Of a stretch of 10,615 nt of DNA, positions 1 to 7,877 are shown one piece after another. Every line of letters begins with the position of its first letter. The first letter of the stretch is position 1. The notes beneath the pieces are model-generated. The model searched no databases. It had not been told where the DNA came from and saw nothing but the letters and a program-made list of their open reading frames with translations. Source of the DNA: a virus (taxonomy: Duplodnaviria > Heunggongvirae > Uroviricota > Caudoviricetes). The stretch covers positions 1-10,615 of IMG/VR virus record IMGVR_UViG_3300028991_000014. One strand, 5' to 3'. The position numbers and the translations under genes were made by a program.

Positions 1-135
1 TTCCTGGAAACGGGCGCGCTAATCGAAAAGGATCGGCATGGATTTGTCAGATGTGCGCTATCCGGTGAAATGCTGGCAGTAAATCCTGAACAGATAGATG
101 CATTGATAGAATTTCTGAAAGGGATCAGGGACTGA
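1..135 (+). CDS. hypothetical protein, C-terminal fragment (gene enters the window from the left)
   Basis: Frame 1 is open from base 1 to TGA at 133-135 (...EFLKGIRD*), followed directly by a hairpin/T-run terminator. The 44 aa give no recognisable family. Confidence 0.4.
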   Translation, partial: FLETGALIEKDRHGFVRCALSGEMLAVNPEQIDALIEFLKGIRD

Positions 136-145
136 GCACCCATAC

Positions 146-179
146 AGCCGGAGCAATCCGGCTTTTTGTAATTTTTTGT
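146..179 (+). terminator. intrinsic terminator downstream of the partial upstream ORF
   Basis: Stem AGCCGGA (146-152) / TCCGGCT (157-163) with GCAA loop, followed by TTTTGTAATTTTTTGT (164-179). Confidence 0.55.
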
Positions 180-291
180 AAATTATTTGTTCGTGGTCGT
201 TCCACGTTGTTCATTGACCGGATCGGCATATTTTACCCGCCCTGAATCATGATTATTCTCGCCAGTGGTGCCAGGACGCTGGGGCCACTTT

Positions 292-333
292 CCCGCCTGT
301 TAATGTGCTCACCAATATTCATTACCAGGCGGG
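292..333. promoter_or_regulatory. 14-bp inverted repeat with 14-bp spacer upstream of the capsid gene (operator or RNA-structure candidate)
   Basis: CCCGCCTGTTAATG (292-305) and CATTACCAGGCGGG (320-333) are reverse complements with one mismatch. No T-run follows on either strand, so it is not a simple terminator. Confidence 0.3.
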
Positions 334-389
334 AAAACGATCGGTGCGATTGCTGATTTCCTTATGAAAAACGGTTGAGTTTTTGCCGC

Positions 390-427
390 GTCCTGGAGTT
401 CCTTACTTAACCCCAGGACTTTTTTTT
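390..427 (+). terminator. terminator-like hairpin plus T8 abutting the capsid start codon (possible regulated terminator or attenuator)
   Basis: Stem GTCCTGG (390-396) / CCAGGAC (413-419) with an inner GTT/AAC extension, followed by TTTTTTTT (420-427) and then ATG at 428. Confidence 0.3.
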
Positions 428-1585
428 ATGCCGAGAATAATCGAATTACGCCAGCAGAAAACCGCCATTAAAAATCAGATGCGCGACATGCTGGAGAACG
501 CGGAAAAAGAAAACCGCAGCCTTAACGATGCAGAGGGCGCAAAATTTGACGAATTACGCGCTAAAGCTGAATCCCTCGATAAAGACATTTCCCGCCTTGA
601 AGCCATTGCAGACGAAGAGCGCAGCAAGCCAGGTAAAAGCAGCCAGACCACTGACCCGGCAGAACTCCGCAACTACATCCTGACAGGTGAAACCCGCGCA
701 TTAAGTACAGGTGTCCCCGCTGATGGTGGTTATACCGTTATCCCTGAACTGAACACCGAAATCATGCGAATGCTGGCGGATGAGTCCACCATGCGCCGCA
801 TCTGTACCGTGAAAAAAATCAGCAGCAACGAGTTTAAGCAGCTTGTTTCCGCTGGCGGTGCGGTCGTTAACCACGGTGAAGAGGGTAAGGCACGCGAACA
901 GACCAGCACCCCGCAGATTAACGAGGTGAGCATTAAGCTGTATCCGGTCTATGCGTACCCGCGCACCACACAGGAAATCGTGGATTTTTCCGATGTGGAC
1001 ATCCTTTCATGGCTGACGGGCGAGATTGGCGACACCTTCACGGAAACCGAAGAAAGTGATCTGGTTGTGGGCGACGGTGACAAAAAAGCAAAAGGTTTTT
1101 TATCCGTACCCCGTGCAGAGAAGAACGACAAAGAACGTGATTTCGGAACGTTGCAGGTTATCAAGCCCGTTGATGATCTTGCCTGGACATCTGCGGACCC
1201 GCTGATCGATCTGAAATTTGCATTACGTAAAAAATACCGCAAGAACGCGGTATGGGTGGTTAACTCCACGACGGCGGCAAAACTCCAGAAGGTGAAGAAT
1301 GCGAACGGGGATTATATATGGCGTGACCGTTTACAGGCGGGTGATCCTGACACATTGCTGGGCCTTCCGGTCGAATATCTGGAGTTTATGCCGGATAACG
1401 TTATTGCCCTGGGCGACTTTAAACGCGGTTACTACATCGTTGATCACGAAACAGGTGTTCGCACCAGACCGGACAACCTGACAGAACCAGGATTCATCAA
1501 AATTTTCACGCAAAAATATTTAGGCGGTGGCGTGGTGGATTCGAACGCGATCAAGATTCTGGAACTGCCACAGGACGACGATTAA
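428..1585 (+). CDS. phage major capsid protein, HK97 family
   Basis: 385-aa product with a charged, coiled-coil-like N-terminal segment (delta-domain-like) followed by a capsid-type body; sits at the head of a protease/portal gene set. The ORF track begins at TTG 383; ATG 428 is chosen as start, but there is no clear SD so the start is uncertain. Confidence 0.8.
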   Translation: MPRIIELRQQKTAIKNQMRDMLENAEKENRSLNDAEGAKFDELRAKAESLDKDISRLEAIADEERSKPGKSSQTTDPAELRNYILTGETRALSTGVPADGGYTVIPELNTEIMRMLADESTMRRICTVKKISSNEFKQLVSAGGAVVNHGEEGKAREQTSTPQINEVSIKLYPVYAYPRTTQEIVDFSDVDILSWLTGEIGDTFTETEESDLVVGDGDKKAKGFLSVPRAEKNDKERDFGTLQVIKPVDDLAWTSADPLIDLKFALRKKYRKNAVWVVNSTTAAKLQKVKNANGDYIWRDRLQAGDPDTLLGLPVEYLEFMPDNVIALGDFKRGYYIVDHETGVRTRPDNLTEPGFIKIFTQKYLGGGVVDSNAIKILELPQDDD

Positions 1586-1595
1586 CAGCATACAG

Positions 1596-1620
1596 AAGGG
1601 GCTAAAAAGCCCCTTTAGTG
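1596..1620 (+). terminator. hairpin between capsid and protease genes (possible partial terminator or attenuator)
   Basis: Stem AAGGGGC (1596-1602) / GCCCCTT (1609-1615) with TAAAAA loop, followed by an interrupted T-run (TAGTGTTTTATG). Confidence 0.3.
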
Positions 1621-1640
1621 TTTTATGGGTGAAAAAAATT

Positions 1641-2198
1641 ATGAAGAGTATGGAAATCCGGTCATCGGAAATCACCACCAGCGCCAGCAACACGCTTACA
1701 GGCTACGTTGTTCGCTGGGATAACCTTTCGGAACTGTTATGGGGGGAGTTTTACGAAAAATTCCAGCGGGGGGCGTTTACTGAGTGGCTTGCGGCGGGTA
1801 ATGACGTTCGCGGCCTGTATGAGCATGACCACAGCATGTTACTGGGGCGCACCCGTTCTGGCACGCTGAAACTGGAAGAGGACGACACAGGGTTACGCTT
1901 TGAACTTACCCCACCGGATACCAGCACAGGGCGTGACGTTATCGAACTGGTTAAACGTGGTGATATATCCGGCATGAGCTTTGGCTTTCGTTCCCGTAAG
2001 GATGTATGGGATACCACAACAGATCCATGCGTGCGCACCGTGCTGGTGGCGGAACTGTACGAAATTACCGTTACATCCGTACCGGCTTACCCCGATTCCG
2101 GCGTGGAGCTGGCCCGCCGTTCCCTGTATGAGCAGCACCCCGAAAAAATGCCGCGTGCGGATAATCGCCGCTGGTGGGCGGATTTAGCGGGGGTGTGA
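1641..2198 (+). CDS. phage prohead (head maturation) protease, HK97 family
   Basis: Translation from ATG 1641 (MKSMEIRSSEITT...) has the HK97 prohead protease layout (LYEHDHS..., KRGDISGMSFGF, VPAYPDS). The 5' part of track ORF 1527 overlaps the capsid gene and is rejected. A GGTGA lies 9 nt upstream. Confidence 0.85.
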   Translation: MKSMEIRSSEITTSASNTLTGYVVRWDNLSELLWGEFYEKFQRGAFTEWLAAGNDVRGLYEHDHSMLLGRTRSGTLKLEEDDTGLRFELTPPDTSTGRDVIELVKRGDISGMSFGFRSRKDVWDTTTDPCVRTVLVAELYEITVTSVPAYPDSGVELARRSLYEQHPEKMPRADNRRWWADLAGV

Positions 2199-2199
2199 T

Positions 2200-3411
2200 A
2201 TGTGGCCTTTCAGAAGAAAAAAAGAGCAGCGCAGCATGACGCTTGATGAATTTATGGCGCTGGCTGGCACATCGAACACGGGGGCGGGTGAGTACGTATC
2301 ATCGGGGACAGCGGAATCACTCCCCGCCGTCATGAACGCCGTCACGGTCATATCTGAGGCGGTGGCTACTATGCCATGCTACCTGTACCTGGTACGCAAT
2401 GAGAAGGGGAAGGAGGCCCGCGAGTGGCTTGATTCTCATCCGGTCGATCATATCCTCAACGAGCGCCCGAACGCATGGCAAACCCCCTACCAGTTTAAGC
2501 GAATGATGATCCGCCACTGCCTGTTAAACGGTAATGCTTACGCGGTGATTCAGTGGGGGCGTGATGGTTTTCCGGCGGCTTTACATCCTTACCCGCCGCA
2601 GTCGGTGAACGTGGAGCAGACAGGAGAACACAACTGGCGCTATTGCATCACTGACGCCTACACCGGAAACACCCGCAACTATTTACCGTGGGAAGTACTT
2701 CACCTTCGTTACTCCACGGATGACGGCTTTATGGGGCGCTCACCTGTAACCATCTGCCGCGAATCGCTGGGGCTTGGGCTGGCCCAACAACGCCACGGCG
2801 CGAGCGTGATGCGTGATGGCATGATGGCAGCAGGGGTTATCACGTCAGGCGAATGGCTGGACGGCGTGAAGGGCAAACAGGCATTAGCCGCACTGGAACG
2901 CTATAAAGGGGCCAAAAACGCCGGAAAAACGCCCATCCTTGAAGGGGGCATGAGTTACCAGCAGCTGGGCATGAGTAACCAGGACGCCGAATGGCTGGCC
3001 TCCCGTCGCTTCACCATTGAAGACATCGCCCGAATGTTCAACGTCTCGCCGATTTTTCTGCAGGAATACAGCAACAGCACCTACAGCAATTTCAGCGAGG
3101 CAAGCCGCGCATTTCTCACCATGACGATGCGCCCGTGGCTGGCGAACTTTGAGCAGCAGATAAAAAACGCCTTGCTGGTGGTCTCGCCTGTACCTGGTAT
3201 CCGGTATCAGGTGGAGTTTGACAGCGCGGACCTGTTACGGGCCACACCTGGCGAACGCTTTGCCACCTATGAGCGAGGCATCAAATCCGGTGTTATGTGC
3301 CCGAACGAAGCCCGCGAACGAGAAGGGTTGTCTCCGCGTGATGGTGGTGATGAGTTCAGCCAGGCATGGAAACAGGAAGTAAAAATCAGCGAGGGAGAAA
3401 AACCGGAATGA
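2200..3411 (+). CDS. phage portal protein, HK97 family
   Basis: 403-aa product with portal hallmarks (ESLPAVMNAVTVISEAVATMP, LLNGNAYAVIQ, GGMSYQQLGMSNQDAEWL, IEDIARMFNVSP). GGGGG SD at 2189-2193; start is 1 nt after the protease stop. Confidence 0.9.
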   Translation: MWPFRRKKEQRSMTLDEFMALAGTSNTGAGEYVSSGTAESLPAVMNAVTVISEAVATMPCYLYLVRNEKGKEAREWLDSHPVDHILNERPNAWQTPYQFKRMMIRHCLLNGNAYAVIQWGRDGFPAALHPYPPQSVNVEQTGEHNWRYCITDAYTGNTRNYLPWEVLHLRYSTDDGFMGRSPVTICRESLGLGLAQQRHGASVMRDGMMAAGVITSGEWLDGVKGKQALAALERYKGAKNAGKTPILEGGMSYQQLGMSNQDAEWLASRRFTIEDIARMFNVSPIFLQEYSNSTYSNFSEASRAFLTMTMRPWLANFEQQIKNALLVVSPVPGIRYQVEFDSADLLRATPGERFATYERGIKSGVMCPNEAREREGLSPRDGGDEFSQAWKQEVKISEGEKPE

Positions 3412-3746
3412 ACATAGGGCGACTGCGTGACAGGGTAACGATTCAGACCCTGAAACAGACCAGAGCCATGACGGGCGAAATACTCGAAACGTGGGAGGAC
3501 GGTCACACACTCTGGGCAAGCGTGAACATGGTCAGCAGCAAGGAGGCCATTTCATCGGGTGCAGAGCTGGCGATTGGTACCGTAAGGATCTGGATACGGT
3601 ACCGGAAGGACATTAACGCCACCAGCCGGATAAAGGTCAATACGGGGCCGCTGGCGGGGCGTGTACTGAATATCATCGGGCAGCCGCTGCCGGATGCCGC
3701 CAGGACACGCCTTGAAATTCTTTGTCGTGAGGGCGCGGAAAAATGA
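3408..3746 (+). CDS. phage head-tail adaptor / head closure protein
   Basis: 112-aa product from ATG 3408 with motifs RVTIQ, TLWASV, RIWIRYRKDI, RLEILCRE typical of this family. Start overlaps the portal stop (ATGA); GAGGGAG SD at 3391-3397. Confidence 0.8.
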   Translation: MNIGRLRDRVTIQTLKQTRAMTGEILETWEDGHTLWASVNMVSSKEAISSGAELAIGTVRIWIRYRKDINATSRIKVNTGPLAGRVLNIIGQPLPDAARTRLEILCREGAEK

Positions 3747-4039
3747 CAGAAGAACTTATCACCCTGGAAGAAGTGAAACTCCATTGCCGCATCGATGGCG
3801 ACGAGGAAGACCAGTTAATCAGCGGATACATTGCCGCATCGCTTGAGGCGTGCCAGATACACATAGGCAGGCGCTTTGATGACGGGCTGGAGTTCACGCC
3901 AGCCATAAAGATTGGCTGCATGATGTTTATCGCTCACCTGTATGAGAATCGCCAGATTGTCGCGGATAACGCAAAAACACACGTACCCATGACGATTGGC
4001 GCACTCTGGACGGCTTACCGTGATGTGGGGGTGTACTGA
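3743..4039 (+). CDS. phage gp6-like head-tail connector protein
   Basis: 98-aa product MTEELITLEEVKLHCRIDGDEEDQLISGYIAAS... matches the gp6-like connector pattern. ATGA overlap with the adaptor stop. Confidence 0.8.
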   Translation: MTEELITLEEVKLHCRIDGDEEDQLISGYIAASLEACQIHIGRRFDDGLEFTPAIKIGCMMFIAHLYENRQIVADNAKTHVPMTIGALWTAYRDVGVY

Positions 4040-4479
4040 TGCCGTGGCAACCATTAAGACGATGTACAGAACCAGGCTGCAACAGGCGCGTGAAGTCCGG
4101 CAAGTGTGAGGAGCACAGACGCAGCGCACGCCAGCAGCAGGACAGCCGGAGAGGCAGCAGCAGGGAGCGAGGGTATACGAGGCAGTGGGAGAAATACCGC
4201 GCCATGTATCTGAGTAAAAACCCGTTATGTGCGCATTGCCTGGAAAAAGGAATATACAAGCCCGCCGTGGTGGTGGATCACATTATCCCAATCGATGGCG
4301 GTAATGATGTTCTCTTCTGGCCTGAGTGGAATCATCAGCCATTGTGCCAGGCGTGTCATAACCAGAAAACGAAATGGCTTGATCCGTCCACAAAAAACAA
4401 GCGTGCTGCGGGTGGATTCCGTGAGGAGGAAGAACGGGCCGCTAACCGCAATAACTGGATGTATGGCGCTGATGAATGA
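4039..4479 (+). CDS. HNH endonuclease (terminase-associated, cos-cleavage accessory type)
   Basis: HNH motif CAHC...VVDHIIPIDGGNDV...NHQPLCQACHNQKT; ATGA overlap with the connector stop; position immediately upstream of terS/terL is typical of HNH-dependent cos packaging. Confidence 0.85.
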   Translation: MPWQPLRRCTEPGCNRRVKSGKCEEHRRSARQQQDSRRGSSRERGYTRQWEKYRAMYLSKNPLCAHCLEKGIYKPAVVVDHIIPIDGGNDVLFWPEWNHQPLCQACHNQKTKWLDPSTKNKRAAGGFREEEERAANRNNWMYGADE

Positions 4480-4645
4480 GCGGGAACAAAACCGCCTTAT
4501 CCGTGGACTTATAAGGCAGCGTGACGCATGGAAGGCACAGGAAACAGGGCATAAAGATAAAGCATCAGGACGCGCAGAACGCATCACAGCGACGCGATTA
4601 AACGACCGTGACCGCGAGGTTATGGAATGTTTCCGCAATCGCTGA
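4472..4645 (+). CDS. hypothetical small basic protein (57 aa)
   Basis: ATG 4472 overlaps the HNH stop by 8 nt; translation MNEREQNRLIRGLIRQRDAWKAQ... is Arg/Lys-rich. It is the non-overlapping distal part of track ORF 4229-4645. No family recognised. Confidence 0.35.
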   Translation: MNEREQNRLIRGLIRQRDAWKAQETGHKDKASGRAERITATRLNDRDREVMECFRNR

Positions 4646-4768
4646 TGAGGCAGCCGGACGGGGTGGGGGGAGTTTTCAGGACGAACCCGACCCCGCCCAG
4701 AACCGACCGCCTCCCCAAATTTTTATGCACGGTAATTTTTTGAAAAATAATCTGGCGAAAAAATAAGC
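4646..4768. other. candidate cos (cohesive-end / terminase recognition) region
   Basis: Non-coding gap between the HNH region and terS with a G-run GGACGGGGTGGGGGGAG (4656-4672) followed by C-runs CCCGACCCCGCCC (4686-4698) and CGCCTCCCC (4708-4716). Position matches where HNH-dependent cos phages carry cos. Confidence 0.4.
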
Positions 4769-5125
4769 ATGGCAAGACCACCGAAAGCCCCCGCCTACCT
4801 GGATGATATCGCCGTGAAGCAGTGGCGGGAAAAATCGCGGCAGCTTGCGGAACGGGGAGACCTGACCCCTGCCGACTGGAGTAATCTGGAACTGTATTGC
4901 GTCAATTACTCGATATACCGGAAAGCCGTCGCAGACCTTGCGGCGCGCGGGTTCAGCATTGTTAACAGTCAGGGCGGAGAGAGCAGAAACCCCGCATTAA
5001 GCGCGAAATCCGACGCGGAAAGAGTGATGATAAAAATGGCCTCTTTGCTCGGTTTTGACCCGATAAGCCGCCGTAAAAATCCACCGGAAACAGAAGAAGA
5101 GGACGAGCTTGACCGCCTGGAATAA
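4769..5125 (+). CDS. phage terminase small subunit, P27 family
   Basis: 118-aa product MARPPKAPAYLDD...LELYCVNYSIYRKAV...GGESRNPAL...LLGFDPISRRK fits the P27-family TerS pattern; immediately upstream of and overlapping the large terminase gene. Confidence 0.85.
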   Translation: MARPPKAPAYLDDIAVKQWREKSRQLAERGDLTPADWSNLELYCVNYSIYRKAVADLAARGFSIVNSQGGESRNPALSAKSDAERVMIKMASLLGFDPISRRKNPPETEEEDELDRLE

Positions 5126-6770
5126 GTACGCAGAAGACGTAAAAACGGGCAAGATTCCGGCCTGTAAACGGCTGAAACAGGCCGTTAAACGATACTTTTC
5201 GGACCTTGAAAACCCCCTTTACATGTTCGATCGTGAGGTTGTTGAGCGGTTTATTGCCTTTTCCAGGGTGTGCCCGCACGTAAAAGGGCCGATGCGTGGA
5301 AGACCCATTGAGCTGGAACCGTGGCAGCAGTTTGCCTTTGCGTGCATCCTCGGCTTTAAGGTTAAGGCCACCGGAAGGCGCAAATACACGAGCGCCTTTA
5401 TCGAAGTGCCGCGCAAAAATGCGAAATCCACGACAGCCGCGATTCTGGCTAACTGGTTTCTGATTATGGAGAACGGGCAGCAGGATATTTACACCGCAGC
5501 GGTGAGCCGCGACCAGGCGCGGATCGTTTTTGATGATGCGCGTCAGATGTGCCTTTTATCCCGACCGTTACGCAAGAGAGTGAATATTCAGGCCCACAAG
5601 GTGATGCACCCGAAAAGCAACAGCCTGTTAAAGCCGCTGGCAGCAAAAGCGGCAACCATCGAGGGCACAAACCCAAGCCTTTCCATCGTGGACGAATACC
5701 ACCTACACCCCGATAACGGCGTTTATTCCGCGCTTGAGCTGGGGATGGGCGCACGTCCCGAAGGGCTGTTATTTGCCATTACCACATCGGGCAGTAACGT
5801 CGTTTCAGCCTGTAAACAGCACTATGATTATTGCTGCCAGATCCTGGACGGCGAAGAGGTCAACGATTCAATTTTTGTGCTGATTTACGAGCTGGACGAC
5901 GAAAACGAGGTTGATGATCCGGCGATGTGGATAAAGGCTAACCCTAACATCGATGTTTCCGTGGATCGTGAAAAACTGGCCTCAACCATCCAGAAAGCGC
6001 GGGGTATTCCGTCGCAATGGGTGGAGATGATGACAAAGCGATTTAATATCTGGTGCCAGGGGGCTACCCCGTGGATGGGTAACGGCGCATGGGCTGAGTG
6101 TGCCGGAACGTTCACGGAGGAAGATTTACACGGGCAGGAGTGTTACGCGGGGCTGGACTTATCATCAACCAGCGATATTTCCAGCGTGTGCTATGCCTTT
6201 CCGGTTGGTAAAACCATTATGCTGATTTCCCGTCATTATCTGCCGGAGTTCCAGCTACAGAACCCCGCCAATAAAAACCGCGCTGTCTATCGCCAGTGGG
6301 CTAAAGCGGGCTGGATACGCACAACGCCAGGTGACTGCATTGATTACGACCGGATCAGAGATGACATCATGCAGGATGCGGAGAAATTTAATATCAGGCT
6401 GGTGGGCTTTGATACGTGGAACGCCACGCACCTGAGAACGCAATTACAGGGGGCTGGTTTTGAGGTGGAGCCGTTCCCGCAAACCTACCTCAGATTCAGT
6501 CCGGCGGCGAAATCGTTCGAAGTTTTTGTTAACCGCAGGGTGATTGTGCATCGTGGCGATCCGGTGTTGTCCTGGTCGATGAGTAACGTCGTGATGCAGA
6601 GTGACGCGAACGCCAATATCAAGCCGAACAAGAAAAAATCACCGAACAAGATAGACCCGAGCGTAGCGGCGCTGATGGCGTTTGGTACATTCCAGGCAGA
6701 GCATGAGGATTTTGCTTTTGATATAAGCGACAGCCACCGCCAGAAACTGGAAGAATTTAGCGGGGTGTAA
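5109..6770 (+). CDS. phage terminase large subunit
   Basis: 553-aa product with an ATPase Walker A-like segment (EVPRKNAKSTTAA), DEYH Walker B-like motif and a C-terminal nuclease-type domain. Apparent TTG start at 5109 with AGAGGA SD 5 nt upstream; overlaps the terS 3' end. The first in-frame ATG would remove the conserved N-terminus. Confidence 0.9.
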   Translation: MTAWNKYAEDVKTGKIPACKRLKQAVKRYFSDLENPLYMFDREVVERFIAFSRVCPHVKGPMRGRPIELEPWQQFAFACILGFKVKATGRRKYTSAFIEVPRKNAKSTTAAILANWFLIMENGQQDIYTAAVSRDQARIVFDDARQMCLLSRPLRKRVNIQAHKVMHPKSNSLLKPLAAKAATIEGTNPSLSIVDEYHLHPDNGVYSALELGMGARPEGLLFAITTSGSNVVSACKQHYDYCCQILDGEEVNDSIFVLIYELDDENEVDDPAMWIKANPNIDVSVDREKLASTIQKARGIPSQWVEMMTKRFNIWCQGATPWMGNGAWAECAGTFTEEDLHGQECYAGLDLSSTSDISSVCYAFPVGKTIMLISRHYLPEFQLQNPANKNRAVYRQWAKAGWIRTTPGDCIDYDRIRDDIMQDAEKFNIRLVGFDTWNATHLRTQLQGAGFEVEPFPQTYLRFSPAAKSFEVFVNRRVIVHRGDPVLSWSMSNVVMQSDANANIKPNKKKSPNKIDPSVAALMAFGTFQAEHEDFAFDISDSHRQKLEEFSGV

Positions 6771-6783
6771 TGAGGTCAGCAGC

Positions 6784-7065
6784 ATGACAGAAGCCGAAAT
6801 ACTGCGATTAATCCGCCGCGTCTCTGGAATCAGCCAGCAGCATGACGAACAGGCCACGCAGCCGGACAGCGTGACCGCCGAAAATTATGCGCGTGTTGTT
6901 GCTGAGGTGATGCGCCGTGATGGTATCCAGCTTAATGATGTGGATATGCGCAACATACGGATCCGCGTTCTTGAAATGCTGGCCTACCGTCGCCGCGTGC
7001 AGACGTACAGGGAAAAAGCAAAAATTACGTACCACTGGAAGAAGCCGGAGCGGTTACGGCGGTAA
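6784..7065 (+). CDS. hypothetical protein (93 aa), last gene of the element
   Basis: ORF with GAGG SD about 8 nt upstream of ATG 6784; basic C-terminus (KKPERLRR); no recognisable family. Its stop abuts the first copy of a 28-bp direct repeat. Confidence 0.45.
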   Translation: MTEAEILRLIRRVSGISQQHDEQATQPDSVTAENYARVVAEVMRRDGIQLNDVDMRNIRIRVLEMLAYRRRVQTYREKAKITYHWKKPERLRR

Positions 7066-7070
7066 CTGGT

Positions 7071-7098
7071 TGAACTTAAAGCAAAGCGCAAAATTGCG
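7071..7098. repeat. 28-bp direct repeat, copy 1 (TGAACTTAAAGCAAAGCGCAAAATTGCG)
   Basis: Identical 28-mer recurs at 7290-7317; flanking bases are also partly similar (CGGTTAC...CTGGTTG). Confidence 0.8.
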
Positions 7099-7111
7099 TT
7101 GGCTGGTGGGT

Positions 7112-7131
7112 GAGTTGCAGATCTGCAACTC
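7112..7131. repeat. perfect 20-bp palindrome GAGTTGCAGATCTGCAACTC
   Basis: Exact self-complementarity read directly from the sequence. It lies between the two direct-repeat copies, together with further hairpins at 7203-7225 (8-bp stem CGATACCC/GGGTATCG) and 7263-7276 (GGCGGAATTCCGCC). Confidence 0.8.
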
Positions 7132-7289
7132 GACCATGAAATTACGGAAAATACCCGTAGTTTGGGTAGTAAGAGTAACACCCAGATTTTGGGGCTTACT
7201 CGCGATACCCAAATAAAGGGTATCGGTGGAAGAAATATCGTTTCTCATATGTGAGTACCGAGGGCGGAATTCCGCCTTCGGTTACTCGC

Positions 7290-7317
7290 TGAACTTAAAG
7301 CAAAGCGCAAAATTGCG
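7290..7317. repeat. 28-bp direct repeat, copy 2
   Basis: Identical to 7071-7098. Confidence 0.8.
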
Positions 7318-7644
7318 CTGATTACTGGTTGGAATTGTTCCAGAGTGCAAATTTACACTATGGCCTAACCCGTTGATATTTCCGGCAACCTCAATTTGAG
7401 GAGGCAGGGAACATCCCCTAAATCCGGTGATGTATTCGGCCCCTTTAACGGGTATTACGATAATCATAACACCTACCGAACAGGTAAAGGCCACCAGCCT
7501 GATTAACGTTTAACCGGAAAAAAAGCCAGGTATCCAATCTCGATATGTGGATCCCCATATCGACAGCAATGCCCCCTTAAAATTATCCGCCTTTATATTT
7601 CTTGTGCCTATTTGTTCCACGTTGTTTCATACAGTGCGCCGAAC

Positions 7645-7668
7645 GGTGTAGTCACTGGTGTAGTCATT
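7645..7668. repeat. tandem 12-bp direct repeats GGTGTAGTCACT / GGTGTAGTCATT near the element end
   Basis: Two adjacent near-identical units about 75 bp from the junction with tqsA. Candidate recombinase arm-type or regulator binding sites (inference). Confidence 0.5.
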
Positions 7669-7712: not shown

Positions 7713-7877
7713 TCAATGTGTTAAGTGAAATAAGTTATATATAACAGCAATAAATAATGCGAGAATAAACGGCACGATGATCTCGGCGGCAAAACGGATA
7801 CCGCAGAGAATAATGACCAGCATTCCCAACATAATGACGATTTTTAGGCCATTGAGCGTGATGATCGGCTTTGCCAT
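7713..7877 (-). pseudogene. tqsA: tqsA (ydgG) 5' fragment truncated by the element insertion
   Basis: Minus-strand translation from ATG 7877 gives [46 protein letters not shown], which matches the TqsA N-terminus as recalled. The frame then diverges into AT-rich element DNA (YNLFHLTH, stop at 7713-7715). Divergent from mdtJ as in E. coli. Confidence 0.7.

What the first reader, a model, noticed from the sequence alone, without database searches (positions are those of the whole stretch)
199..211. 13-bp motif GTTCCACGTTGTT shared between the capsid upstream region and the element terminus
GTTCCACGTTGTT at 199-211 is identical to 7614-7626. Both copies are preceded by ATTTGTTC and followed by (T)CAT, and the first copy looks like the second with a 6-8 bp internal insertion. 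The two sites bracket the whole structural block, about 7.4 kb apart, and the second sits about 115 bp from the chromosomal junction. They could be binding sites for one protein (regulator or recombination-directionality/integrase arm sites), or a remnant of an internal duplication.
Basis: seen in the sequence. Interest (0 to 1): 0.35.

Follow-up and report, generated by a model that had tools for sequence, protein, structure and literature searches.

The report
Phased regulator boxes in a phage satellite
The shared 13-base motif is a slice of a 10-base-spaced repeat array found at four fixed places in this capsid-making phage satellite, most likely the docking sites of its small AlpA protein, so one protein would trigger both excision from the chromosome and capsid-gene expression.

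Summary
In detail: GTTCCACGTTGTT occurs at 199-211 and 7614-7626. An exact 13-mer repeat alone is not beyond chance, since 63% of shuffles of this window contain one. Context makes it meaningful.

The window is the right part of a ~15 kb capsid-forming PICI (EcCIEDL933-like) inserted in tqsA. The 13-mer spans two units of a 10-bp-phased array (TTGTTCnnnn). In related islands this array occurs:
- in the attL arm (19/19 loci);
- just 3' of int (58/58);
- in the attR arm (8/8);
- ~220 bp upstream of the capsid gene, in capsid-forming islands only (27/28, versus 0/22 classical PICIs).

Copy 1 equals copy 2 plus exactly one 10-bp unit.

A second repeat next to the array (GGTGTAGTCAC x2) changes in both arms together with the integrase N-terminal allele. 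That repeat is therefore the integrase arm site, and the TTGTT array belongs to another protein.

The layout mirrors the experimentally mapped TorI (excisionase) boxes of prophage KplE1. The best reading is AlpA operator boxes serving excision and capsid-operon activation; this is inferred, not shown. It is a new member of a known kind, of moderate interest.

The parts
1..135 (+). 3' end of the last early-operon ORF (74-aa hypothetical, 'orf225')
   Evidence: RefSeq annotation of the 98.9% identical locus L001. No Pfam hit.
146..168 (+). Intrinsic-terminator-like hairpin plus T run closing the early operon, directly before the array
   Evidence: Terminator scan. The same hairpin is conserved in L002.
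174..184 (+). Box TTTTGTAAATT, invariant in capsid leaders of divergent capsid-forming PICIs
   Evidence: Invariant columns in alignment A1 of 8 leaders from E. coli, Shigella, Rosenbergiella, Erwinia and Citrobacter. Used as a search anchor that recovered at least 120 further leaders.
187..216 (+). Capsid-upstream array of three 10-bp units (TTGTTCGTGG TCGTTCCACG TTGTTCATTG). It contains copy 1 of the 13-mer (199-211). Weaker phased TTGT units extend back to 166.
   Evidence: Present in 27/28 related capsid-forming islands and absent from the equivalent region of 22/22 classical PICIs.
232..259 (+). Promoter-like elements TTTACC-16 nt-TATTCT, read by eye. They would place the array at about -79 to -50.
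   Evidence: Positionally conserved in alignment A1 (TTTACA/TTTTCT ... TATGTT/TATCTT). Not called by the consensus scanner. No transcription-start data.
265..288 (+). Conserved hairpin GTGG..GACG..CCAC at the predicted 5' end of the capsid mRNA
   Evidence: Invariant outer stem and loop in A1. The inner stem is CCAG/CTGG here and CTCA/TGAG in other lineages, which is compensatory.
289..427 (+). Structured leader: a 17-bp-arm hairpin (289-336) and a terminator-like hairpin plus T8 (390-427) abutting the capsid start codon
   Evidence: Inverted repeat I8. RNA fold of 240-440 gives z = -5.7.
428..6770 (+). Packaging operon: capsid, prohead protease, portal, head completion, connector, HNH, TerS, TerL
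   Evidence: RefSeq annotation of L001. Pfam hits Phage_HCP, Phage_connect_1, HNH, Terminase_4.
7602..7631 (+). attR-arm array of three 10-bp units (TTGTGCCTAT TTGTTCCACG TTGTTTCATA). It contains copy 2 of the 13-mer (7614-7626).
   Evidence: The arm module is present in 795 of 5426 E. coli genomes, including CFT073.
7645..7667 (+). Pair of 12-bp-phased repeats GGTGTAGTCACT GGTGTAGTCAT; inferred integrase arm-type sites
   Evidence: The same pair occurs in the attL arm (L001 4902-4924). The variant (TCAC vs TTAA) in both arms follows the Int N-terminal allele in 17/17 attR cases and not the AlpA allele.
7741..7749 (.). att core ATAACAGCA, the junction with the interrupted tqsA gene
   Evidence: Identical 9-mer at the attL junction (L001 ~4768-4776). 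Arm, core and arm are contiguous in the circular contig L133.

Best explanation
The 13-mer is not a unit in itself. It spans the end of one unit and the start of the next in a 10-bp-phased direct-repeat array (consensus TTGTTCnnnn).

The island carries four such arrays: the attL arm just upstream of int, immediately 3' of int on the opposite strand, about 220 bp upstream of the capsid gene (copy 1), and the attR arm (copy 2).

I propose they are cooperative head-to-tail binding sites for the island's 62-aa AlpA protein, a winged-helix relative of excisionases such as TorI and Xis.
- In the two att arms, AlpA bound next to the integrase arm sites (the GGTGTAGTCA pairs) would bend the DNA and direct integrase towards excision.
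- At the capsid leader the same boxes lie just upstream of a weak promoter, after the terminator that ends the early operon. AlpA would switch on the packaging operon from there.
- The array 3' of int is the candidate operator for the known AlpA autoactivation.

Shown here: the arrays, their phasing, their four conserved positions, and their separation from the integrase arm sites. Inferred: that AlpA is the binder, and that its effect at the capsid promoter is activation.
For: - Array specificity: GTTNCACNTTGT occurs 6 times in 34.6 kb, all within the four clusters.
- Conservation across about 70 related islands: attL 19/19, 3' of int 58/58, attR 8/8, capsid-upstream 27/28, and 0/22 in classical PICIs between alpA and the right end.
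- The arrays 3' of int differ in unit sequence between islands but keep TTGTT at an exact 10-bp phase.
- The neighbouring GGTGTAGTCAC/GGTGTAGTTAA pairs follow the Int N-terminal allele in both arms and are independent of the AlpA allele. The TTGTT arrays stay the same across both Int alleles.
- The arrays do not follow the primase (37-98% identity), the capsid (62-100%) or TerS.
- AlpA belongs to PF05930 (E = 1.2e-16) and is 29% identical to TorI over 42 aa.
- TorI boxes in KplE1 attL are CAGTTCGT-ca-TGGTTCGC-tt-CAGATCGT, 10-bp phased, at -93 to -66 from intS, followed by IntS arm sites (PMC2951348). Here there are four TTGT units at -90 to -51 from int, followed by the arm-site pair.
- Other int/alpA families show the same arm-to-capsid-leader sharing with different units. 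Examples are L208/L275/L316, and L269/L296, where the tandem GTTCAT pattern occurs only in the attL arm and the capsid leader. The similarity test placed 12 of 19 loci in the top 3% or better.
- Literature: AlpA activates its own promoter, and its overexpression induces excision and replication of EcCICFT073 (PMC6092414). An alpA mutation abolishes EcCIEDL933 induction. alpA overexpression is used to drive EcCIEDL933 reproduction for purification of the element.
Against: - There is no binding, footprint or transcript data. The promoter downstream of copy 1 is read by eye and was not called by the scanner.
- AlpA was chosen largely by elimination.
- Int and AlpA always co-occur in this family (83-99% and 85-98% identity), so no natural chimera separates the conserved parts of Int from AlpA.
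- Fillol-Salom et al. found no AlpA effect on a Pint fusion in EcCICFT073, although the attL array lies upstream of int.
- The arm-to-leader similarity was not significant in some families: the int-49% family, Erwinia and Gilliamella.
- One leader repeat type (GTACTCATGTTTACCC) occurs with two unrelated excisionase families. This argues that at least some leader repeats are read by something other than the island's excisionase.
- In most AlpA-type islands the first unit after the conserved box is the generic ATTTGTTC. Part of the similarity between copies could therefore reflect a common family half-site rather than a matched operator.
Confidence: 0.55

Rival explanations
1. The TTGTT arrays are a second class of integrase arm-type sites, bound by the Int N-terminal (PF13356) domain. 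Int, not AlpA, would also occupy the capsid leader.
For: The arrays lie in both att arms, next to the other repeat pair. Int has an arm-binding domain. Integrases can autoregulate from attL (PMC2951348). In Gilliamella the leader motif TTTTAGTTA resembles the 12-bp-phased arm pairs.
Against: The GGTGTAGTCA pairs, not the TTGTT units, change with the Int N-terminal allele in both arms. One small arm-binding domain is unlikely to read two unrelated sequences. The arrays also occur outside attP, 3' of int and in the capsid leader. The unit form and phasing match mapped excisionase (TorI) boxes.
Confidence: 0.1
2. The arrays are bound by some other factor: another island protein (PerC, the 74-aa ORF before the capsid leader), a helper-phage inducer, or a host nucleoid protein.
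For: The invariant TTTTGTAAATT box and the generic ATTTGTTC first unit across many families suggest a common reader. One leader type is shared by islands with unrelated excisionases. alpA induction is known to depend on the helper phage.
Against: Islands lacking a perC match still have the arm and int-3' arrays. The ORF before the leader is absent from many islands that have arm arrays. A host or helper factor does not explain why the units differ between AlpA families in both the arm and the leader.
Confidence: 0.17
3. Chance, or a neutral relic: the capsid-upstream copy is a leftover of an att arm or of a tandem-island fusion and has no function.
For: A 13-mer repeat is expected by chance in this window. 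PICIs are mosaic, and attR arm, core and attL arm are contiguous in the circular contig L133.
Against: The array holds a fixed slot after a conserved box, upstream of promoter-like elements. It is kept in 27/28 capsid-forming relatives, including ones with 63-74% identical capsids and diverged flanks, and it is absent from 22/22 classical PICIs.
Confidence: 0.08
4. The arrays are replication iterons, or packaging (cos/TerS) recognition sites.
For: They are direct repeats with helical phasing, as iterons and cosB-type sites often are. The two window copies flank the packaging module.
Against: The arrays are unchanged across primase alleles of 37-98% identity. They are also present in classical PICIs of this int/alpA family that gave no match to this island's TerS or TerL. 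Two of the arrays are in att arms.
Confidence: 0.03

Closest known systems
TorI (excisionase) boxes in attL of E. coli prophage KplE1/CPS-53
   Same: Short boxes with a GTTC(G) core. Three of them are direct repeats at a 10-bp phase (CAGTTCGT ca TGGTTCGC tt CAGATCGT), about 90-65 bp upstream of the integrase start codon, followed by integrase arm-type sites over the int promoter. The binder is a ~65-aa winged-helix protein distantly related to AlpA.
   Different: In the papers read here, TorI sites are described only on attL, and their known transcriptional effect is repression of intS. This island has arrays in both arms, one 3' of int, and one in front of a capsid operon. Binding here is untested.
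Excisionases that double as transcription regulators: P2 Cox (cox-boxes) and P4 Vis (from my own knowledge; Vis is also mentioned in PMC2951348)
   Same: A small DNA-bending protein binds tandem direct repeats in attP and also at promoters, so excision is coupled to a transcriptional switch. Vis acts on P4 late promoters, and P4 is also a satellite with a related integrase.
   Different: Cox belongs to a different family, and its boxes are unrelated in sequence. According to PMC2951348, Vis may act on int at the RNA level. Neither controls a satellite-encoded capsid operon.
AlpA of classical Gram-negative PICIs (EcCICFT073)
   Same: Int and AlpA belong to the same family. AlpA activates its own promoter and triggers excision and replication (PMC6092414). 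CFT073 carries the same attR arm module.
   Different: I found no AlpA binding site described in the papers searched. Classical PICIs lack the fourth array, the one before the packaging genes.
Lambda Xis sites X1-X1.5-X2, and BldC direct-repeat multimers
   Same: Small winged-helix/MerR-like proteins bind head to tail on direct repeats with roughly one helical turn of spacing (lambda from my own knowledge; BldC from the abstract of PMC5859096).
   Different: Lambda Xis sites are on one arm only. There is no sequence similarity.

Membership tests
Capsid-forming PICI (cf-PICI, EcCIEDL933 type) | About 15 kb island with int, alpA and a primase/replication gene, plus its own capsid, protease, portal, connectors, HNH, TerS and TerL, and no tail or lysis genes | tested here: met
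   Annotation of L001, which is 98.9% identical to the window. Pfam hits. Definition taken from 10.1101/2022.09.08.507074.
Excisionase (RDF) binding-site array in an att arm | Lies within the att arms, next to integrase arm-type sites | tested here: met
   attL: units at L001 4859-4898, then the pair at 4902-4924. attR: 7602-7631, then 7645-7667. The core is 114 bp further on.
Excisionase (RDF) binding-site array in an att arm | Two or more direct repeats with helical (~10 bp) phasing | tested here: met
   3-6 units at an exact 10-bp phase at all sites, in about 70 islands.
Excisionase (RDF) binding-site array in an att arm | The element encodes a cognate Xis/AlpA-type winged-helix protein | tested here: met
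   62-aa AlpA, PF05930 E = 1.2e-16. Matches PDB 8c3t 'AlpA family phage regulatory protein'. 29% identical to TorI.
Excisionase (RDF) binding-site array in an att arm | The protein binds these sites and is required for excision | not testable with these tools
   Only indirect support: alpA overexpression causes excision of EcCICFT073 (PMC6092414).
Integrase arm-type sites | Sequence covaries with the integrase arm-binding domain | tested here: not met
   The TTGTT arrays are identical across the two Int N-terminal alleles. The adjacent GGTGTAGT(CAC/TAA) pairs covary instead, in 17/17 attR cases.
Integrase arm-type sites | Confined to the attP arms | tested here: not met
   Arrays are also found 3' of int and upstream of the capsid gene.
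Activator-dependent promoter operator | Repeats just upstream of the -35 of a weak promoter that follows a terminator | tested here: inconclusive
   The terminator at 146-168 was called. TTTACC-16-TATTCT is positionally conserved but was read by eye and not called by the scanner. No transcription-start data.
Activator-dependent promoter operator | Downstream genes require the activator | not testable with these tools
   Literature only: an alpA mutant is not induced or transferred, and alpA overexpression drives EcCIEDL933 reproduction.
Replication iterons / cos-TerS sites | Repeats covary with the initiator or terminase | tested here: not met
   The arrays are constant across primase alleles of 37-98% identity and in islands that gave no match to this island's TerS or TerL.
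P. aeruginosa AlpA antiterminator / AlpA-binding element | Q-like protein of more than 140 aa that reads GGGACG between -35 and -10 | tested here: not met
   The PICI AlpA is 62 aa and belongs to PF05930. The Pseudomonas protein has DNA contacts at residues 128-142 and a 21Q-like fold (PMC9371919). The two share only a name.

The most novel reading that the evidence does not exclude
Capsid-forming PICIs share a conserved capsid-promoter scaffold: the TTTTGTAAATT box, a weak promoter and a 5' hairpin. This scaffold has an exchangeable operator slot that each island fills with the same boxes its own excisionase-like AlpA reads in the att arms. A single ~60-aa protein would then couple excision, its own amplification and capsid production, and swapping the slot would let packaging modules move between islands with different integration modules.
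Probability: 0.4. Interest if true: 0.55.

Novelty: new member of a known kind. Interest (0 to 1): 0.42.

Why it matters
AlpA is the master switch of Gram-negative PICIs, but I found no description of where it binds in the papers I could search. These arrays give a concrete operator candidate that can be mutated in the two experimentally used islands, EcCICFT073 and EcCIEDL933.

They also suggest how a satellite that builds its own capsids ties capsid production to excision. A further result is a clean assignment of the integrase arm sites from natural covariation.

If the assignment is wrong, the arrays remain a reliable sequence signature of this island family: the attR arm module that carries one of them is present in 795 of 5426 complete E. 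coli genomes.

Tried and rejected
- **Antitermination by AlpA.** I considered the Pseudomonas AlpA/binding-element model because of the terminator-like hairpin before the capsid ATG. I dropped it because the Pseudomonas protein is an unrelated, larger Q-like protein.
- **Rfam.** A scan of the window gave no match at gathering thresholds.
- **Natural chimeras.** I looked for islands with this AlpA but an unrelated Int. None turned up among 69 loci found with AlpA.
- **Exact 10-mer sharing** between the capsid leader and the rest of each locus was too noisy to use.
- **Motif-first scan of IMG/VR** returned mostly chance hits. Only about 25 of the matching contigs were PICIs.
- **Generalising to remote families.** The shared TTTACCC in Erwinia and TTTTAGTTA in Gilliamella looked suggestive by eye but were not significant in the objective similarity test.
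- **Megablast with the 103-bp capsid-leader fragment** found only 16 genomes, because variants lack a 28-bp exact word. That number is not a prevalence estimate.
- **Structure prediction of AlpA** was not attempted. The gene lies outside the window, so the tool would refuse it.

Full report
**Observation.** GTTCCACGTTGTT is present exactly at 199-211 and 7614-7626 on the + strand, with no further match at up to 2 mismatches. However, copy 1 (ATTTGTTC-GTGGTCGTTC-CACGTTGTTCAT) equals copy 2 (ATTTGTTC-CACGTTGTTTCAT) plus exactly 10 bp, not 6-8. As a bare statistic the repeat is unremarkable: 63% of Markov-1 shuffles of the window contain a 13-mer direct repeat, and the window has several unrelated ones.

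**What the window is.** The window matches 191 complete E. coli genomes over at least 80% of its length. In the best match (L001, 98.9% identity) it is the right part of a ~15 kb island inserted in tqsA. From left to right the island carries:
- int (P4-type, with a PF13356 arm-binding domain);
- a 62-aa AlpA (PF05930), an Icd-like protein, a primase, SSB and PerC;
- then capsid, prohead protease, portal, head completion protein, connector, HNH, TerS and TerL.

There are no tail or lysis genes. This is the gene set of the capsid-forming PICIs typified by EcCIEDL933 (10.1101/2022.09.08.507074). The att core is ATAACAGCA, at window 7741-7749. Copy 2 therefore ends 114 bp inside the attR arm.

**The motif is part of a phased array with four locations.** In L001 the looser pattern GTTNCACNTTGT occurs six times in 34.6 kb. 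All six fall in four clusters:

| Site | Position | Strand |
|---|---|---|
| attL arm | L001 4859-4898, -90 to -51 from the int start | + |
| 3' of int | L001 6221-6270 | - |
| Upstream of capsid | window 187-216 | + |
| attR arm | window 7602-7631 | + |

Each cluster is a run of 3-6 direct repeats at an exact 10-bp phase, with consensus TTGTTCnnnn. The 13-mer is the end of one unit plus the start of the next.

I fetched about 70 islands with the same int/alpA family from IMG/VR. A detector that asks only for at least three phased TTGT units gave:

| Site | Loci with an array |
|---|---|
| Upstream of int | 19/19 |
| 3' of int | 58/58 |
| attR arm | 8/8 |
| Upstream of capsid (capsid-forming islands) | 27/28 |
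| Between alpA and the right end (classical PICIs) | 0/22 |

The same detector gave one hit in 209 kb of unrelated sequence. The arrays 3' of int differ considerably in unit sequence between islands yet keep TTGTT in phase. That pattern is what selection on a repeated protein contact would produce.

The attR arm module occurs in 795 of 5426 E. coli genomes, including CFT073. A classical PICI of O157:H7 has three arrays and none before its late genes. Contig L133 is circular, with a 119-bp terminal overlap. It shows the excised attP as [array + pair]-core-[array + pair], all in one orientation.

**Which protein?** Next to the array in both arms is a second repeat, GGTGTAGTCACT GGTGTAGTCAy, at a 12-bp phase.
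- Across islands this pair exists in two versions, GTAGTCAC and GTAGTTAA.
- In both the attL arm and the distant attR arm, the version follows the integrase N-terminal allele: 8 and 9 attR cases, with no exception.
- Identical AlpA alleles occur with either version.
- The two Int alleles differ mainly in residues 1-60, within the arm-binding domain.

The pairs are therefore the integrase arm-type sites. The TTGTT arrays are unchanged across both Int alleles, so they belong to something else. They also do not follow the primase (37-98% identity), the capsid or TerS, which excludes iterons and packaging sites.

AlpA is the remaining conserved DNA-binding protein of the module. It is a distant relative of the KplE1 excisionase TorI (29% identity over 42 aa). 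The experimentally mapped TorI boxes in KplE1 attL read CAGTTCGT ca TGGTTCGC tt CAGATCGT. They have a 10-bp phase and a GTTCG core, lie at -93 to -66 from intS, and are followed by IntS arm sites over the promoter (PMC2951348; sequence read). This is the same architecture, and nearly the same core, as the attL arm here.

**The capsid-upstream copy.** Copy 1 follows the terminator of the early operon (146-168). It sits immediately after the box TTTTGTAAATT (174-184), which is invariant in leaders of capsid-forming islands from five genera (alignment A1). Downstream there are:
- positionally conserved promoter-like hexamers (TTTACC-16-TATTCT, 232-259), read by eye and not called by the scanner;
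- a conserved hairpin (265-288) whose inner stem shows compensatory changes between lineages;
- a strongly structured leader (z = -5.7).

This would put the array at about -79 to -50, a usual place for an activator.

Islands of this int/alpA family whose capsid is only 63-74% identical, and whose leader flanks differ, keep the array. I recovered 120 more leaders through the box and the hairpin. In these, the slot after the box holds different phased repeats.

In several other families the slot repeats resemble the island's own attL arm:
- The L208/L275/L316 family (int 41% identical) has a collinear arm, TTGTTCGTCG...TTCTGGCTG.
- In the family with AlpA helix ICRTTRYMMEK, a tandem GTTCAT pattern occurs only twice per locus, in the arm and in the leader.
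- An objective similarity test placed the attL arm in the top 3% or better of windows for 12 of 19 loci tested.

The test was not significant for the int-49% family, Erwinia or Gilliamella. One leader type is also shared by islands with unrelated excisionase families. The general rule is therefore supported but not universal.

**Mechanism proposed.** AlpA binds head to tail on the TTGTTC units.
- In the arms it acts as the directionality factor alongside integrase bound to the adjacent pairs.
- At the array 3' of int it accounts for the reported autoactivation of alpA.
- At the capsid leader it activates the packaging operon.

This fits published genetics. AlpA activates its own promoter, and its overexpression causes excision and replication of EcCICFT073 (PMC6092414). 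An alpA mutation abolishes EcCIEDL933 induction and transfer. alpA overexpression is used to drive EcCIEDL933 reproduction for purification of the element (10.1101/2025.02.11.637232).

One published result does not fit easily: AlpA had no effect on a Pint fusion. I found no paper in the searchable library that defines an AlpA binding site in PICIs.

**Verdict.** It is best read as excisionase/activator (AlpA) boxes rather than integrase arm sites or a duplication relic. Binding and regulatory effect remain inferred. The principle, an excisionase that doubles as a regulator and binds phased repeats, is known from TorI, Cox, Vis and Xis. Its wiring to a satellite's own capsid operon, and the arm-site assignment, appear to be new details.

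Noticed in passing
window 174-184 and 265-288 (alignment A1; loci L203-L322): Capsid leaders of capsid-forming PICIs from several genera share an invariant box TTTTGTAAATT and, about 80 nt downstream, a hairpin GTGG..GACG..CCAC. The hairpin's inner stem shows compensatory changes (CCAG/CTGG here, CTCA/TGAG elsewhere). It may be a 5' mRNA element or a protein site. There was no Rfam match.
   Followed up: partly
window 390-427: A terminator-like hairpin (GTCCTGG...CCAGGAC) plus T8 ends one base before the capsid ATG, with no clear Shine-Dalgarno sequence. The whole 240-440 leader folds with z = -5.7. This suggests attenuation or translational control of the capsid gene.
   Followed up: partly
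window 7645-7667; L001 4902-4924: The GGTGTAGTCAC x2 pairs in both arms switch to GGTGTAGTTAA x2 together with the Int N-terminal allele (residues 1-60). This is a natural specificity swap of arm site and arm-binding domain. The core resembles the lambda arm-site consensus (AGTCACTAT, from memory).
   Followed up: yes
window 7060-7112 and 7279-7331: A 53-nt direct repeat (83% identity), each copy containing the palindrome AGCGCAAAATTGCG, lies in the variable region between the 93-aa ORF after terL and the attR arm. Its function is unknown.
   Followed up: no
L133 1-119 and 10980-11098: This metagenomic viral contig has a 119-bp terminal overlap, so it is a circular (excised) classical PICI. 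Its attP junction is intact: arm, core and arm are contiguous.
   Followed up: yes
L002 2780-4006: The integrase of the Shigella flexneri copy has an in-frame stop at about codon 116, so that island is probably immobile.
   Followed up: no
L202 4925-6138: In O157:H7 strain MB9-1 an IS3-family element is inserted between the attL arm repeats and the int gene of a classical PICI. The insertion separates int from its presumed promoter and operator.
   Followed up: no
window 336-346; L001 4895-4905: The 11-mer AACGATCGGTG, which precedes the arm-site pair in attL, also occurs in the capsid leader 125 nt downstream of copy 1, in both L001 and L002. It may be chance.
   Followed up: no
L208 3571-3726 and 3883-4032 (also L211, L252, L275, L316): Some capsid-forming islands carry two AlpA-like genes, one directly after int and a second further on. 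This is reminiscent of the alpA/alpA_1 split (regulator versus excisionase) reported for EcCIMP1 (PMC11773190).
   Followed up: no
window 4646-4768: The non-coding gap between the HNH-associated ORF and terS is where an HK97-type cos site would be expected. It was not examined.
   Followed up: no
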